Below are positions 1 to 5,706 of a stretch of DNA of 6,214 bases, piece after piece. This DNA comes from a virus (lineage: Duplodnaviria > Heunggongvirae > Uroviricota > Caudoviricetes). The translations under genes were made by a program, and so were the position numbers. The notes beneath the pieces were generated by a model, which worked only from the letters and a program-made list of their open reading frames with translations, had not been told where the DNA came from and searched no databases. The stretch lies in the IMG/VR virus record IMGVR_UViG_3300014522_000013. One strand, 5' to 3'. How positions within the stretch are numbered: position 1 is the first letter of the stretch; each line of letters opens with the position of its first letter.

Positions 1-104
1 GAGTGCGAGGATTGTTATTGTCTTTTCTTCGTGCATTTGTCGCACTTTCGGCACCATCCAGATAGGCACATCCGTCCGCAATTAACACATATAGGCCACA
101 TCAT
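1..104 (-). CDS. Cys-rich small protein, 5' part only (continues beyond the left edge of the window); possible zinc-ribbon protein
   Basis: Hand translation on the minus strand: ATG at 104..102 overlaps the TGA of the upstream gene (103..101) as ATGA. Translation MMWAICVNCGRMCLSGWCRKCDKCTKERQIQSSH... contains C-x2-C-x3-C and C-x2-C-x2-C spacings. GAGGA lies 4 nt upstream. Not in the supplied ORF track; reading frame is still open at position 1. Confidence 0.3.
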
Positions 105-379
105 TTTTCCTCTTTTGGTTTATGAATCTGAATGGTCATGCCACTTTGAGTGGTGACTACAACGACAGAACCAGGCTGAAGACTGTTAAGATTGAATGCT
201 TCGTAAAACGAAGCCAAGGCCAGCGCTTTTTTATTCTTTCGGTTCCACCAACGCCATCCATTGCTACAGGCTACACTGACAATCCACTGTCCACTCCTGT
301 AAGCCATATAAAACCAGATGAGCAAAACCTGAATGAATGCTATCCAGTCAATAATCGTATATTTCGCGAAGGAGACCAT
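101..379 (-). CDS. small hydrophobic (probable membrane) protein, about 92 aa, function unknown
   Basis: Track ORF 101..382 begins at a TTG; the adjacent ATG at 379..377 has AGGAGG 7 nt upstream and overlaps the TGA of the DUF551 gene as TGATG. N-terminal stretch YTIIDWIAFIQVLLIWFYMAY is strongly hydrophobic, followed by a basic patch WRWWNRKNKK. Confidence 0.6.
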   Translation of the reverse strand: MVSFAKYTIIDWIAFIQVLLIWFYMAYRSGQWIVSVACSNGWRWWNRKNKKALALASFYEAFNLNSLQPGSVVVVTTQSGMTIQIHKPKEEK

Positions 380-1194
380 CAATTAACCTCCTGCGGCGGT
401 TCCGGTAGAGGCATCCAGTACAAGGCGTTCCCTAACCACGATAAAGTGCCGTCGCTCAACTCCACGTATTCCCCTTGTACCTGTCCTGCCATATACTCGC
501 CGTGCTTTGAATAAATTAAAATCCAATCATCTTGAGCGGGCATTCGCTCACTACAGCTTATCCAACCATCCGGAGTTACCGGATAGTTGCCAGCCAGTCT
601 ACGCAAAACAGTCTTAACCGCCTCAATACGGTCATCATCGCAACTTTCCAGCGTATCTATGCGATCGAGGATGATGATGGCGTTATCAATATCAGGATTG
701 CCGGTCCACTCATTACCGCGATTGGATTCGGCAGCCTGGTTGCCGCGTACTGGTTGATTCTCGGCTTTACCCTGTCTGTCGTCGCTGCATGAATGCCCTT
801 CCAGCCAGACCAGTGCTTGTCGCATGAAATACGCAATATGCTTGCCGTGGTAATCGTCTTCATCGATGTGAAAAGCGATACTGCGGATATATTCAATTGC
901 GTTTTCAATGGCCTCCGGCGTTACCGGAGTTGGTCCATCGAATTCGGGCATGTCAGGACCTTTTCTGATAGCTTTAGCCAGCTCCAGCGGGTCATCGTAA
1001 AGCCAGTCGCCAGTTTGTGGGTGATTTGCTTCTGCAAGCTGCGCAGCCCATTCAAGACCATCTTTTTGACCTTGGAGATAATCAAGCGGCAACTCTTCAT
1101 GATTACTTGCAGGTTCGGCACCATGAAGCATGGCGTCGCTCCGCTCTATGCCATCCAGCGCGATTCGCAGTGCCTGATAGTCAATCTTGCTCAC
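379..1194 (-). CDS. prophage protein with C-terminal DUF551-like domain (271 aa), GTG start
   Basis: C-terminal segment WISCSERMPAQDDWILIYS...YWMPLPEPP matches the remembered DUF551 signature (W-I-x-V/C-x-E-R-x-P ... W-M-P-L-P-E-P-P) common in enterobacterial prophages. GTG start at 1194 is preceded by AAGGAGG with a 6-nt spacer and overlaps the upstream stop as GTGA. Acidic N-terminal half. Confidence 0.78.
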   Translation of the reverse strand: MSKIDYQALRIALDGIERSDAMLHGAEPASNHEELPLDYLQGQKDGLEWAAQLAEANHPQTGDWLYDDPLELAKAIRKGPDMPEFDGPTPVTPEAIENAIEYIRSIAFHIDEDDYHGKHIAYFMRQALVWLEGHSCSDDRQGKAENQPVRGNQAAESNRGNEWTGNPDIDNAIIILDRIDTLESCDDDRIEAVKTVLRRLAGNYPVTPDGWISCSERMPAQDDWILIYSKHGEYMAGQVQGEYVELSDGTLSWLGNALYWMPLPEPPQEVN

Positions 1195-1766
1195 TGGTTG
1201 CCTCCTTTGCGAAGCTGGGCAGCAAAGTCAACTAACCACTCAGTCATTTCAACCTTCCCTACCAGGTCTGAACCAGGGTGCATACAGCAATCACTCTGCG
1301 CCGCTTTGAAATCCTTATACTCATATTCTTGGACCACCAGATTTTTTGCAGCTTCTATAGCAGCATCCACCCCCTGCGCCCGCACTTCAGACAGGAAAGC
1401 ATCAGTGGCTGGAATGGGCTTTTGTGGTGATATAGCAATGCGAATTGTCTCAAGGTCTGGATCTGTTTCCGCTGCTGGCACCTTGATATAACCCATCTGC
1501 ACCCCATTCATGATGAACCTGCGACGGTCATCACATATCGCCTTTAGCCCCGCACTCTCCGCTGCCAGCGCCGCGCACTTGGCCTCAAGGTTATCAATCG
1601 TGATTCCAGCAGAACGACACTCCCGCAACGCCGTTTCCAGTTTTGATTCAAGCTCACCGAACTTACGCACCAGATATTCAGCGTTTGTTTCGTTAACCTT
1701 TAAATCTCGTGGGATGCATTTACCTTTCAGAAATCCATCCATCTCAATTAGTGACATTTGTTTCAT
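1191..1766 (-). CDS. coiled-coil prophage protein, possibly Ea22-like family; function unknown
   Basis: Track ORF 1191..1784 starts at a GTG with no Shine-Dalgarno; the in-frame ATG at 1766 ([12 protein letters not shown]...) is the more likely start. Central segment [38 protein letters not shown] looks coiled-coil. Stop overlaps the DUF551 gene start. Ea22-like assignment is by position and general character only. Confidence 0.65.
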
Positions 1767-4458: not shown

Positions 4459-4574
4459 AATAAGACCTCAACTCTTTTCCATCCGTCACGTAATTTANNN
4501 NNNNNNNNNTCAAGTAAAGATTCATTTAATTGGAAGGCACCCATGCGAGCGCCTCCCGCGATTGCGTAAATCAT
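4443..4574 (-). CDS. cIII: CIII-like protein (FtsH/HflB protease inhibitor that stabilises CII), about 43 aa; four and a half codons are masked by the N-run
   Basis: Hand translation MIYAIAGGARMGAFQLNESLL-[E/D]-xxx-[x]-KLRDGWKRVEVLLCAMK against lambda CIII MQYAIAGWPVAGCPSESLLERITRKLRDGWKRLIDIL.... Readable bases in the two partly masked codons (GAN and NNT) fit Glu and Arg(CGT) of lambda ERITR. AAGGAA Shine-Dalgarno 7 nt upstream of ATG 4574. Missed by the ORF track because of the Ns. Confidence 0.82.
   Translation of the reverse strand: MIYAIAGGARMGAFQLNESLLXXXXXKLRDGWKRVEVLLCAMK
4498..4509. other. 12-nt run of N (masked or unresolved bases) inside the cIII-like coding sequence
   Basis: Literal n characters in the sequence; flanking reading frame is continuous if the run length is correct. 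Confidence 0.95.
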
Positions 4575-4598: not shown

Positions 4599-5567
4599 TT
4601 AGTAGGTTATTTTTGTTGCGAATACTTCGCCTTTTACGATGGCTGTTATGATATTTTTAGCAACATCTTCTGGTGCGCCAACCTTGATAAGGTCAGCAAG
4701 TATTTTGTTATTTACTTCTTTCCGGTGAGCTTTATCCTTTGCTCTACGCTCTTCTTCGTCCTTGATTCTTTTTTCTTCTGCTATTCTGGCTTGCTCTTTT
4801 GCTTCAGCCTCGCGCCGGATTCGTTCAGCCTCCTCCTGTGCTTTTCGGCGTTCTGCTTCAATTGCCGCCTGCTTTTCTCTTTCAGCTCGTTCTGCTGCCT
4901 CTTTTGCTTCGCGCTGTGCTCGTTGCTCGGCTTCAATGCGTTCACGCTCTGCACGTTCCGCTGCGGCCTTAGCTTCTGCTTCTCGCCTTGCTGCTGCTTC
5001 AATTTCGGCTTTTGCCTTTGCTTCGGCTTCAGCTCTGGCTTTCTCTTCAGCTTCTCTTTGTAAGCGTTCTTCATGCTCTCGCTTTTCCTGCTCCGCTTTG
5101 AGTCTTGCCTCTTCTCTTTGGCGGTCAAATTCGCGATCCATCAAAATCGCTATTTCATGGTCAGACTCAATTTGCTTTGCGAGAGCTTCAGCTGCTGCCT
5201 TAGCTTCTTCTTCGGCTTTAATCCGCGCCTGTTCTTCCTCATAATCAGTAAGAGGCTGGCGCGCCTTGGCTTTCAGTTCATCAAGGCGATCGCGCACTGT
5301 CTTGCGGTTGGCATCAATTAGCTTTGGAATTTCCTTCAGTTCAGCAACAAGGTCTTTGCCAAGACCATCGAGATATGTTTTCGTCTGCGCAACTTTATAC
5401 GCCAGAGAAGCGATCTCCTTTCTGCCCTTTGCCGTTGTGATATCAGGCACAAAGGACATAACTTCACGTTCAACCTTTTGAAGGATTTCTTCAATCTGGT
5501 CGGCAGACTGAAATACAGTCATTGCATTTGCTTTTTCAATAACAACTAAATCTGTTACTTCACTCAT
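4599..5567 (-). CDS. 322-aa protein: globular N-terminal domain (~105 aa), ~170-aa Glu/Arg/Ala/Lys-rich predicted single alpha-helix or coiled-coil, short C-terminal domain; function unknown
   Basis: Long ORF with GGAGG Shine-Dalgarno 4-5 nt upstream of ATG 5567. Central region is runs such as EAEAKAKAEIEAAARREAEAKAAAERAERERIEAEQRAQREAKEAAERAEREKQAAIEAERRKAQEEAERIRREAEAKEQARIAEEKRIKDEEERRAKDKAHRKE. Stop lies 24 nt upstream of cIII. Confidence 0.85.
   Translation of the reverse strand: MSEVTDLVVIEKANAMTVFQSADQIEEILQKVEREVMSFVPDITTAKGRKEIASLAYKVAQTKTYLDGLGKDLVAELKEIPKLIDANRKTVRDRLDELKAKARQPLTDYEEEQARIKAEEEAKAAAEALAKQIESDHEIAILMDREFDRQREEARLKAEQEKREHEERLQREAEEKARAEAEAKAKAEIEAAARREAEAKAAAERAERERIEAEQRAQREAKEAAERAEREKQAAIEAERRKAQEEAERIRREAEAKEQARIAEEKRIKDEEERRAKDKAHRKEVNNKILADLIKVGAPEDVAKNIITAIVKGEVFATKITY
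4745..5255 (-). repeat. compositionally biased, codon-repetitive DNA (CT/GC-rich on the plus strand) encoding the E/R/A/K-rich segment of the 322-aa protein
   Basis: Plus strand is dominated by gcttc/ctgc/ttct-type units without exact long tandem repeats; it generates several spurious overlapping ORFs in other frames (4530..5063 +, 4762..5244 +, 4781..5128 -). Confidence 0.6.
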
Positions 5568-5600
5568 ATATCCTCCATCAAAAAATCGCCCTCACATTGG

Positions 5601-5678
5601 NNNNNNNNNNNNNNNNNNNNNNNNNNNNNNNNNNNNNNNNNNNNNNNNNNNNNNNNNNNNNNNNNNNNNNNNNNNNNN
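5601..5678. other. 78-nt run of N (masked or unresolved bases) between the AT-rich orphan gene and the 322-aa gene
   Basis: Literal n characters; content cannot be read. Followed on the minus strand by ccaatgtgagggcgaTTTTTTga and then the Shine-Dalgarno of the 322-aa gene. Confidence 0.95.
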
Positions 5679-5706
5679 TGGAATGAATACACAGTGCTTA
5701 TTCGTA

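What the first reader, a model, noticed from the sequence alone, without database searches (positions are those of the whole stretch)
1..379. Coupled small membrane protein and Cys-rich ORF at the distal end of the operon
A 92-aa hydrophobic protein is coupled by TGATG to the DUF551 gene and by ATGA to a Cys-rich ORF (CVNCGRMC...WCRKCDKC) that runs off the window. A membrane protein paired with a possible zinc-ribbon protein near the int-proximal end of a prophage is the kind of place where small toxins, superinfection-exclusion factors or excision regulators occur. The partner ORF is incomplete here.
Basis: partly seen in the sequence, partly recalled or inferred. Interest (0 to 1): 0.4.

Follow-up and report, generated by a model that had tools for sequence, protein, structure and literature searches.

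The report
Membrane protein plus tiny cysteine-rich phage protein
The end of this prophage operon carries a small membrane protein of a known but uncharacterised family, followed by a complete, conserved 28-residue cysteine-rich micro-protein that most genome annotations miss. The two are independent accessory genes, not a dedicated pair.

Summary
The ORFs and both overlaps (TGATG, ATGA) are present as described. The Cys-rich ORF does not run off the window; it stops at TAA 17..15, giving 28 aa from the conserved ATG or 29 aa from the extra one.

The 92-aa protein is a clear Pfam DUF4752 member. It has one N-terminal transmembrane helix and a basic, probably cytoplasmic, C-terminal part. The family is confined to Enterobacterales prophages and its function is unknown.

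The small ORF is a real gene. I found 129 copies in viral and metagenome contigs, with 29 distinct DNA versions of the 22-codon core. They share MWPICxxCGRxCxxxWCxxCD and are 24-29 aa long. Thirteen residues are invariant while synonymous sites are saturated. Nearly every copy starts on or next to the stop codon of an upstream gene. It matches no Pfam, PHROGs, NCBIfam or PADLOC model. I read it as a minimal zinc-ribbon-like micro-protein, but zinc binding is inferred only.

The two genes are not a system. Two thirds of E. coli DUF4752 genes lack the micro-ORF, and the micro-ORF follows at least seven unrelated gene families, including in siphoviruses and a myovirus. No test supports a toxin, exclusion or excision role. 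Interest is modest.

The parts
379..1194 (-). DUF551-domain gene (271 aa), immediately upstream. Context only.
   Evidence: ORF. Pfam PF04448 at E 6e-11 over residues 210-268. Annotated as a DUF551 protein in the 99.3%-identical E. coli MS1657 prophage.
377..381 (-). TGATG junction: the stop of the DUF551 gene overlaps the start of the DUF4752 gene.
   Evidence: Read directly from the sequence.
101..379 (-). DUF4752 gene, 92 aa plus stop. A small bitopic inner-membrane protein.
   Evidence: Pfam PF15944 at E 2.7e-34, 117.5 bits against a cutoff of 27. phrog_667 at E 9e-38. RefSeq calls it 'DUF4752 family protein'.
299..358 (-). Codons 8-27 of DUF4752: the predicted transmembrane helix.
   Evidence: Kyte-Doolittle peak 1.82 at residues 8-26; net charge +1 in the N flank and +6 in the C flank. 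AlphaFold2 helix 5-48 with pLDDT 81-89 over residues 11-40. The Kapi1_004 record notes 'DeepTMHMM: TMhelix residues 9-27'. The hydrophobic N-terminus is kept in homologues of 20-30% identity.
108..114 (-). AAGAGGA Shine-Dalgarno-like motif inside the last codons of DUF4752, 4 and 7 nt upstream of the two ATGs of the micro-ORF.
   Evidence: Sequence. An SD-like motif lies upstream of 125 of 129 family members.
15..101 (-). Micro-ORF, 28 aa plus TAA: MWPICVNCGRMCLSGWCRKCDKCTKKRQ. An extra in-frame ATG at 104..102 would give 29 aa.
   Evidence: Translation. HK106 gp30. Homologues begin at MWPIC. Protein-level selection shown.
1..14 (-). First half of a terminator-like hairpin (AATCCTCGCACTCGCGGGGATT followed by a T-run), cut by the window edge.
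   Evidence: The full hairpin, and a second one 30 nt further on, are seen in L001 and other relatives.

Best explanation
Window 1-379 holds the last two genes of this part of the early-left (exo-xis type) operon of a lambdoid prophage. They are two unrelated accessory genes.

Gene 1 is a DUF4752 protein. It has one N-terminal transmembrane helix, probably N-out/C-in. Its roughly 60-residue basic C-terminal part is predicted as a helix plus a beta-hairpin. It is made by translational coupling to the DUF551 gene. From position alone, I infer it acts on some inner-membrane-associated host process early in lytic growth.

Gene 2 is a complete 28-aa micro-protein of an uncatalogued family, MWPICxxCGRxCxxxWCxxCD, with five invariant Cys. 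I infer that four of them (C5, C8, C17, C20) bind one zinc ion as a minimal zinc ribbon. I also infer that the small, basic (net +6) protein acts by binding a host or phage macromolecule.

The micro-ORF is translated by ribosomes that terminate on, or just before, its start codon, helped by an SD inside the upstream gene. It travels as its own mosaic module, consisting of about 25 nt of upstream sequence with the SD, the ORF and the terminators. It can sit behind many different genes.

Shown: the gene structures, family membership, coding selection, the overlap rule and independent distribution. Inferred: membrane topology, zinc binding, actual reinitiation and any biological role.
For: - DUF4752 membership.
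- TM helix and topology.
- The micro-ORF ends inside the window.
- Homologues at 64-76% amino-acid identity in siphoviruses C1, KFS-SE2, ST1UNAM and CF-SP1 and in myovirus Tr1. tblastn E is 1e-5 to 4e-5 for the closest; Tr1 is 7e-4 and CF-SP1 8e-3.
- Window versus those copies: pS 0.78-1.15 against pN 0.14-0.24. Within the siphoviruses dN/dS is 0.06-0.29.
- Across 29 distinct DNA versions, variable columns by codon position are 9/8/19 of 22. Gly9 uses 4 codons and Arg10 uses 5.
- Two independent DNA patterns, one leaving the C-terminus free and one leaving the N-terminus free, recover the same set. W16, C17, C20, D21 and MWPI are invariant without being imposed.
- Of 129 copies, 123 overlap the upstream stop (TGATG or TAATG) and 5 have a 1-nt gap. 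125 have an SD-like motif and 122 are intact at 24-29 aa.
- Independent distribution.
- Module boundary about 25 nt upstream of the ATG.
- CxxC-x8-CxxC with W before the third Cys also occurs in the Zn ribbon of RNA polymerase III RPC2. The match is not significant and serves as an analogy only.
- Terminator-like hairpins follow the ORF.
Against: - There is no experimental or structural evidence for zinc binding.
- A fifth invariant Cys (C12) is not explained by a simple Cys4 site.
- The C-terminal part of DUF4752 is modelled with low confidence (pLDDT about 50-60) and has no fold match. Its role is a guess from location.
- In 60 of 85 IMG/VR copies the upstream gene is DUF4752. A functional link in the E. 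coli lambdoid lineage cannot be excluded. Those copies are near-identical (at least 97% in E. coli genomes) and probably reflect shared ancestry.
- No expression data were found.
Confidence: 0.7

Rival explanations
1. DUF4752 and the Cys-rich peptide form a dedicated two-component system. Examples would be a membrane toxin with a zinc-ribbon antidote, or an exclusion module.
For: The genes overlap by ATGA/TGATG. DUF4752 is the upstream gene in 60 of 85 IMG/VR copies and in 37 of the 40 sampled E. coli rows.
Against: - Only 184 of 546 E. coli genomes with DUF4752 carry the micro-ORF. ST104 and CUS-3 have an ASCH-domain gene there instead, and PA28 has nothing.
- Divergent DUF4752 genes lack it.
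- The micro-ORF follows TraR/DksA-like, phrog_7798, phrog_12449 and other unrelated genes.
- The one other membrane-protein partner (L032) is not a DUF4752 relative; hhalign probability is 2.5%.
- No PADLOC hits.
Confidence: 0.1
2. DUF4752 is a superinfection-exclusion or membrane-acting protein, and this is the main biological point of the locus. The micro-ORF is incidental.
For: It is a small single-pass inner-membrane protein in a prophage accessory region. From general knowledge, small phage membrane proteins such as T4 Imm, P22 SieA and HK97 gp15 block DNA entry.
Against: - No homology to any defence or exclusion model.
- The gene sits inside the N-dependent early-left operon, coupled to DUF551.
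- No sigma-70-like promoter was found within 2.3 kb. Expression in a lysogen, which classical exclusion needs, is therefore unsupported. The consensus scan is a weak test.
Confidence: 0.15
3. The Cys-rich frame is not a gene. The conserved 100 nt would instead be a regulatory or terminator RNA element or a recombination boundary.
For: - The segment is unusually uniform in E. coli, at least 97% identical in 184 genomes.
- It is followed by two terminator-like hairpins.
- Mosaic junctions fall at its edges.
- RefSeq's annotation pipeline does not annotate it in any of the 40 sampled rows.
- Three annotators chose three different frames.
Against: - Synonymous sites are saturated while 13 residues are invariant.
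- The reading frame, start and length are kept in phages with otherwise unrelated flanks.
- No Rfam match reaches its threshold.
- The other two annotated frames are not conserved outside the lambdoid copies.
Confidence: 0.03
4. A -1 ribosomal slip on the A-run before the DUF4752 stop (GAA AAA TGA TG) fuses the zinc-ribbon peptide to the membrane protein.
For: The micro-ORF is in the -1 frame. AAA Lys can re-pair one base back in GAAAAAT (sequence).
Against: The A-run is absent upstream of the micro-ORF behind other partners, for example GGATGTGATG, GTGAAGTGATG and GGATTGATATG. Every member keeps its own ATG and SD.
Confidence: 0.03

Closest known systems
Pfam DUF4752 (PF15944) / PHROG 667
   Same: The 92-aa protein matches over the full length, at E 2.7e-34 and 9e-38. 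It has the same length, N-terminal hydrophobic helix and C-terminal ALxxxYxAFxL...PG...T..G motif as members from Serratia, Klebsiella, Raoultella, Kosakonia, Erwinia and Citrobacter.
   Different: Nothing differs; it is an ordinary member. The family has no known function and no paper in the searched library mentions it.
Escherichia phage HK106 gp30 (YP_007151700.1), 29-aa hypothetical protein
   Same: Same ORF in the same position after DUF4752, with one residue different (K27Q).
   Different: It is annotated only as hypothetical. Most records leave it unannotated or annotate another frame. HK106 starts it at the first ATG, whereas homologues point to the second.
Minimal Cys4 zinc ribbons, e.g. 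the C-terminal Zn ribbon of RNA polymerase III subunit RPC2 (PDB 5fj8_B, residues 1094-1110)
   Same: CxxCG ... WCxxC with the same 8-residue spacer, and W before the third Cys.
   Different: The match is not significant (E 0.85-1.6). RPC2's ribbon is a domain of a 1149-aa protein, whereas this is a free-standing 24-29-aa protein with a fifth invariant Cys. Metal binding is untested.
Small proteins of the lambda exo-xis region (Ea22, Ea8.5, Orf60a/61/63/73)
   Same: Same genomic neighbourhood between the recombination genes and xis/int, transcribed early from pL. PMC10834534 describes the region as poorly characterised. From my own knowledge, Ea8.5 is a zinc-binding small protein and Orf73 is TraR-like.
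   Different: No sequence similarity was detected to any Pfam model of these. The micro-protein is far smaller and also occurs outside exo-xis regions, in nin regions and in virulent-type phages.
Small phage membrane proteins that block superinfection (T4 Imm, P22 SieA, HK97 gp15)
   Same: Small size, membrane anchoring and an accessory location in the phage genome. This is an analogy from general knowledge.
   Different: No homology. DUF4752 is in a lytic early operon with no detected promoter of its own.

Membership tests
Pfam DUF4752 (PF15944) | Score above the curated gathering threshold over the full model | tested here: met
   117.5 bits against a cutoff of 27, model positions 2-84 of 84.
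Pfam DUF4752 (PF15944) | Shared architecture: about 85-94 aa, N-terminal hydrophobic helix, conserved C-terminal motif | tested here: met
   A 55-sequence alignment has A54 and A61 invariant and W32, F62, G70, T77 and I83 at 90% or more. The helix is seen.
Cys4 zinc ribbon / zinc knuckle | Two CxxC knuckles separated by a short hairpin-forming spacer | tested here: met
   C5xxC8 and C17xxC20 are invariant in 29 distinct versions with a constant 8-residue spacer.
Cys4 zinc ribbon / zinc knuckle | Binds one zinc ion through four Cys | not testable with these tools
   Needs metal analysis of the purified peptide.
Cys4 zinc ribbon / zinc knuckle | Zinc-ribbon fold (two beta-hairpins) | not tested
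Any curated protein family for the micro-protein (Pfam, PHROGs, NCBIfam, PADLOC, PDB) | Significant profile or sequence match | tested here: not met
   No hits, or only E above 0.03. One source labels it 'DUF1244', which hmmscan did not reproduce.
Two-gene system (toxin-antitoxin-like or exclusion pair) | The two genes co-occur across lineages | tested here: not met
   184 against 546 E. coli genomes. There are other partners for the peptide. Divergent DUF4752 genes have no peptide ORF downstream.
Superinfection-exclusion / anti-phage defence proteins | Homology to a known defence or exclusion protein | tested here: not met
   No PADLOC hit at E up to 1 for either protein.
Superinfection-exclusion / anti-phage defence proteins | Expression from the repressed prophage (own promoter) | tested here: inconclusive
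   0 promoter-like sites in L001 5000-7300, against 2.7 expected. A consensus scan is weak evidence.
Excision regulators (Xis / RDF / TorI-like) | Winged-helix or HTH DNA-binding domain next to int | tested here: not met
   Neither protein hits such a model. Separate HTH, excisionase or TorI genes lie next to int in relatives.

The most novel reading that the evidence does not exclude
The MWPIC micro-protein is an uncatalogued, horizontally mobile family of 24-29-residue zinc-binding phage proteins. It is among the smallest conserved phage proteins known. In this reading it acts as a host-directed inhibitor, for example of a defence system, a nucleic-acid enzyme or the transcription/translation apparatus. 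It would be shared by temperate lambdoid and P22-like phages, several siphovirus genera and a large myovirus, and expressed only through termination-reinitiation on whatever gene precedes it.
Probability: 0.25. Interest if true: 0.55.

Novelty: new member of a known kind. Interest (0 to 1): 0.3.

Why it matters
The membrane protein is an ordinary member of a known family of unknown function.

The useful result is the micro-ORF. It is a clearly selected 24-29-aa, five-Cys protein. RefSeq's annotation pipeline leaves it unannotated in every sampled E. coli genome. Three annotators placed it in three different frames. It is absent from Pfam, PHROGs and NCBIfam. It occurs in about 3% of complete E. 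coli genomes and in unrelated virulent-type phages.

It is a clean example of how very small phage genes are missed. It is also a tractable candidate for a minimal zinc-binding effector, and a natural case of obligate stop-start coupling. If it proves to target a host function it could be a compact tool. If not, the correction still improves annotation of the exo-xis and nin regions.

Tried and rejected
- **Exact-sequence cluster look-up:** it found the peptide, but it is grouped with unrelated 473-480-aa outer-membrane-type proteins. I treat this as a clustering artefact and ignore it.
- **Genome-contig scan with DUF4752:** returned a single contig labelled as a Segatella MAG (92% protein identity to the window's DUF4752; I suspect E. 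coli contamination), which was uninformative.
- **DUF4752 structure:** two AlphaFold2 runs (8 and 55 sequences) gave mean pLDDT 62 and 64.5. Only the N-terminal helix was confident. Foldseek against the PDB gave nothing below E 2.8. I ran no further fold searches because the model is too weak.
- **HMMER against 1.84 billion representatives:** it found few true relatives. The long multi-repeat hits are WD40 or other repeat proteins and are spurious.
- **PDB sequence search for DUF4752:** no hit.
- **Is the L032 membrane-protein partner a remote DUF4752 relative?** Rejected; hhalign probability is 2.5%.
- **ADH structural-zinc-site resemblance (E 0.036):** it depends on the sixth Cys, which is not conserved in the family, so I rejected it.
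- **Rfam scan:** nothing above threshold.
- **Literature:** no paper mentions DUF4752 or the peptide sequence. The Enterobacteriaceae microproteome preprint has nothing specific.
- **NinF annotation under one E. coli hit:** this is a prophage deletion junction, not homology.

Full report
**1. What is in the sequence**

All genes in the window are on the minus strand.

- The DUF551-domain gene is at 379..1194. It ends with TGA at 381..379.
- The A of that stop is the first base of the ATG (379..377) of a 92-aa ORF at 101..379.
- The 92-aa ORF ends with TGA at 103..101. An ATG at 104..102 overlaps it as ATGA. A second in-frame ATG at 101..99 overlaps it as TGATG.
- Translating from 104 gives MMWPICVNCGRMCLSGWCRKCDKCTKKRQ followed by TAA at 17..15.

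The Cys-rich ORF is therefore complete inside the window. It is 29 aa from the first ATG and 28 aa from the second. The claim that it runs off the window is wrong.

**2. Genomic setting**

An E. coli chromosome (MS1657) carries a prophage 99.3% identical over window 1-1200. Reading along the minus strand, its gene order is:

- N, Kil, RecT, Sipho_Gp157, DUF2737, a hypothetical gene, DUF551, DUF4752;
- the unannotated micro-ORF;
- two small hypothetical genes, an HTH/excisionase-like gene and integrase, next to sbcB.

Pfam hits on the window's own ORFs agree: Kil, RecT, Sipho_Gp157, DUF5405 and DUF2737. This is the distal, int-proximal part of the early-left operon, equivalent to the lambda exo-xis region. 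PMC10834534 describes that region as poorly characterised.

Right after the micro-ORF, relatives carry two terminator-like hairpins with T-runs. Window positions 1-14 are the first half of the first hairpin. No sigma-70-like promoter was found in the 2.3 kb around the locus. No Rfam family reaches its threshold.

**3. The 92-aa protein**

It is a full-length member of Pfam DUF4752, at E 2.7e-34 and 117.5 bits against a cutoff of 27. It also matches PHROG 667, of unknown function. It has no hit in NCBIfam, PADLOC or PDB sequences.

Evidence for one N-terminal transmembrane helix:

- Only about the first 30 residues are hydrophobic. The Kyte-Doolittle 19-residue maximum is 1.82 at residues 8-26.
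- The N flank has net charge +1 and the 25 residues after the helix have +6. This predicts N-out/C-in.
- The Kapi1 phage record notes 'DeepTMHMM: TMhelix residues 9-27' for its homologue.
- AlphaFold2 with 55 homologues gives a confident helix 5-48, with pLDDT 81-89 over residues 11-40.

The rest of the model is a low-confidence helix (50-61) and hairpin (73-85), with mean pLDDT 64.5. Foldseek against the PDB found nothing.

The family is small and confined to Enterobacterales:

- 31 representatives at E up to 1e-3 among 1.84 billion proteins, several of them spurious repeat proteins;
- 96 clusters at 90% identity, from Escherichia, Serratia, Klebsiella, Raoultella, Kosakonia, Erwinia and Citrobacter.

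No paper in the library mentions it.

**4. The micro-ORF is a real gene**

tblastn against phage genomes found the lambdoid copies and also diverged copies. The diverged copies are 64-76% identical. E-values are 1e-5 to 4e-5 for the closest, 7e-4 for Tr1 and 8e-3 for CF-SP1. They occur in siphoviruses C1 (Deseoctovirus), KFS-SE2 (Skatevirus), ST1UNAM and CF-SP1 (Swiduovirus), and in the 154-kb myovirus Citrobacter Tr1. In all of these the region is unannotated. They read, for example, MWPICKHCGRMCLNSWCRKCDKPSK*.

Selection tests:

- Between the window and these copies, the proportion of synonymous differences is 0.78-1.15, which is saturated. The non-synonymous proportion is 0.14-0.24.
- Among the siphoviruses dN/dS is 0.06-0.29.

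Two degenerate DNA patterns were scanned over IMG/VR and the metagenome collection. One fixed only the N-terminal half and the other only the Cys core.

- Both returned the same family. There was one spurious GC-rich hit.
- In total there are 129 copies. 122 are intact and 24-29 aa long.
- There are 29 distinct DNA versions of the 22-codon core. Variable columns by codon position are 9/8/19 of 22.
- Thirteen residues are invariant: M1 W2 P3 I4 C5 C8 G9 R10 C12 W16 C17 C20 D21. They are kept through multiple synonymous codons.
- Every copy begins at MWPIC. The motif never occurs inside a larger protein.
- The sixth Cys of the window copy (C23 of the 28-aa form) is specific to the lambdoid version.

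The conserved start is therefore the second ATG (101..99).

A few copies are decayed:

- JEP4 has three Cys codons changed.
- One contig has a Cys codon changed to a stop.
- Vi II-E1 has a remnant where the upstream genes are deleted.

**5. How it is expressed (inferred)**

- In 123 of 129 copies the ATG overlaps the stop of the upstream gene (TGATG or TAATG). In 5 there is a 1-nt gap.
- 125 of 129 have an SD-like motif inside the upstream gene. In the window this is AAGAGGA at 108..114.

This fixed arrangement, behind unrelated genes, argues for translation by termination-reinitiation. It has not been shown experimentally.

**6. Are the two genes a pair? No.**

- The micro-ORF segment (window 1-106) is in 184 of 5426 complete E. 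coli genomes. The DUF4752 gene (107-379) is in 546.
- Homology to the other DUF4752 loci breaks at about position 107. In ST104 and CUS-3 an ASCH-domain gene follows, and in PA28 nothing does.
- In E. coli CFSAN064035 the micro-ORF follows an unrelated 147-aa protein. That protein shares only its last 9 residues with DUF4752, which places the module boundary about 25 nt upstream of the ATG.
- In IMG/VR the upstream gene is DUF4752 in 60 of 85 copies. In 12 it is a TraR/DksA-like zinc-finger protein, in nin regions and followed by NinX. The rest are phrog_7798 proteins and several other unknowns.
- One partner is a 213-aa membrane protein, but it is not a DUF4752 relative.
- Divergent DUF4752 genes in Serratia (between DUF551 and an MT-A70 methylase), Klebsiella (after the O/P replication genes) and Kosakonia have no micro-ORF downstream.

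**7. What the micro-protein probably is**

- It matches no Pfam, PHROGs, NCBIfam or PADLOC model.
- It matches no PDB sequence significantly.
- One source labels it 'DUF1244'. I could not reproduce this.
- The best, non-significant PDB alignment is to the Cys4 zinc ribbon of RNA polymerase III RPC2. That ribbon has the same CxxCG-x-WCxxC layout and 8-residue spacer.

The peptide has two invariant CxxC knuckles, no signal peptide and net charge +6. From these I infer a minimal cytoplasmic zinc-ribbon-like protein that binds a macromolecular partner. The fifth invariant Cys (C12) is unexplained. Zinc binding, fold and target are all untested.

**8. Comparison and novelty**

DUF4752 is an already known family of unknown function. 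The micro-protein has been deposited as a hypothetical protein (HK106 gp30) but belongs to no curated family, and I found no literature on it. Small Cys4 zinc-ribbon proteins are a familiar kind in phages, so I class it as a new member of a known kind.

**9. Verdict**

Interest is modest (0.3). The membrane protein is ordinary. The micro-protein is a tidy, testable, under-annotated family with an interesting expression rule, but no function can yet be assigned.

Noticed in passing
window about 4490-4505 and about 5600-5690: Runs of masked bases (N; shown as X in ORF translations) interrupt two stretches of the window.
   Followed up: no
window 4599-5567 (-): A 322-aa ORF with a long Glu/Ala/Lys/Arg-rich, coiled-coil-like middle (…EAEAKAKAEIEAAARREAEAKAAAERAERE…) and no Pfam hit. 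The otherwise near-identical MS1657 prophage has different genes at this position.
   Followed up: partly
window 101-114 (-): The DUF4752 gene ends GAA AAA TGA TG. A -1 slip of tRNA-Lys on the A-run would read into the micro-ORF frame and fuse the two products. The A-run is absent behind other upstream partners, so this is probably incidental.
   Followed up: partly
L017 2001-2087 (phage JEP4); L011 about 2238; L108 about 8442; L153 1486-1581 (Vi II-E1): Rare decayed copies of the micro-ORF. JEP4 has three Cys codons changed (to R, R and F). L011 has a Cys codon changed to a stop. L108 has P3L. Vi II-E1 keeps only a frameshifted remnant where the upstream mini-operon genes are missing.
   Followed up: partly
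L002 4015-4104, L003 2480-2581, L005 2349-2588: Three phage records annotate three different reading frames over the same 100 nt. Only HK106 gp30 is the conserved frame. RefSeq's annotation pipeline annotates none in the sampled E. coli genomes.
   Followed up: yes
L107 5150-5985 (Kosakonia radicincitans prophage): About 2 kb downstream of a divergent DUF4752 gene lie genes with Acb2/Tad1-hairpin and Tad2-like Pfam hits, which are anti-defence families. This suggests the accessory region can host counter-defence genes.
   Followed up: no
L105 3259-3520 (Klebsiella oxytoca prophage): After a divergent DUF4752 gene come a 26-aa hydrophobic ORF (MTEIYIAESLTGLIAIIGLFYVRRKW) and a 55-aa Cys/His-containing ORF (…YYTCRCIHCGK…). 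Both are unrelated to the MWPIC family.
   Followed up: no
L009 2500-2800 (E. coli 06_3235): A defective prophage in which a deletion joins ninF directly to the micro-ORF module. The junction is at the same boundary (…GATTCATAAACCAAAAGAGG) used in mosaic exchanges.
   Followed up: partly
L012-L014, L016 positions about 880-2080: In Deseoctovirus, Skatevirus and Swiduovirus phages the micro-ORF closes a 3-4-gene mini-operon of unknown-function genes. The operon is wedged, on the opposite strand, between the lysis genes and the head-morphogenesis gene. It ends at a strong bidirectional-looking terminator.
   Followed up: partly
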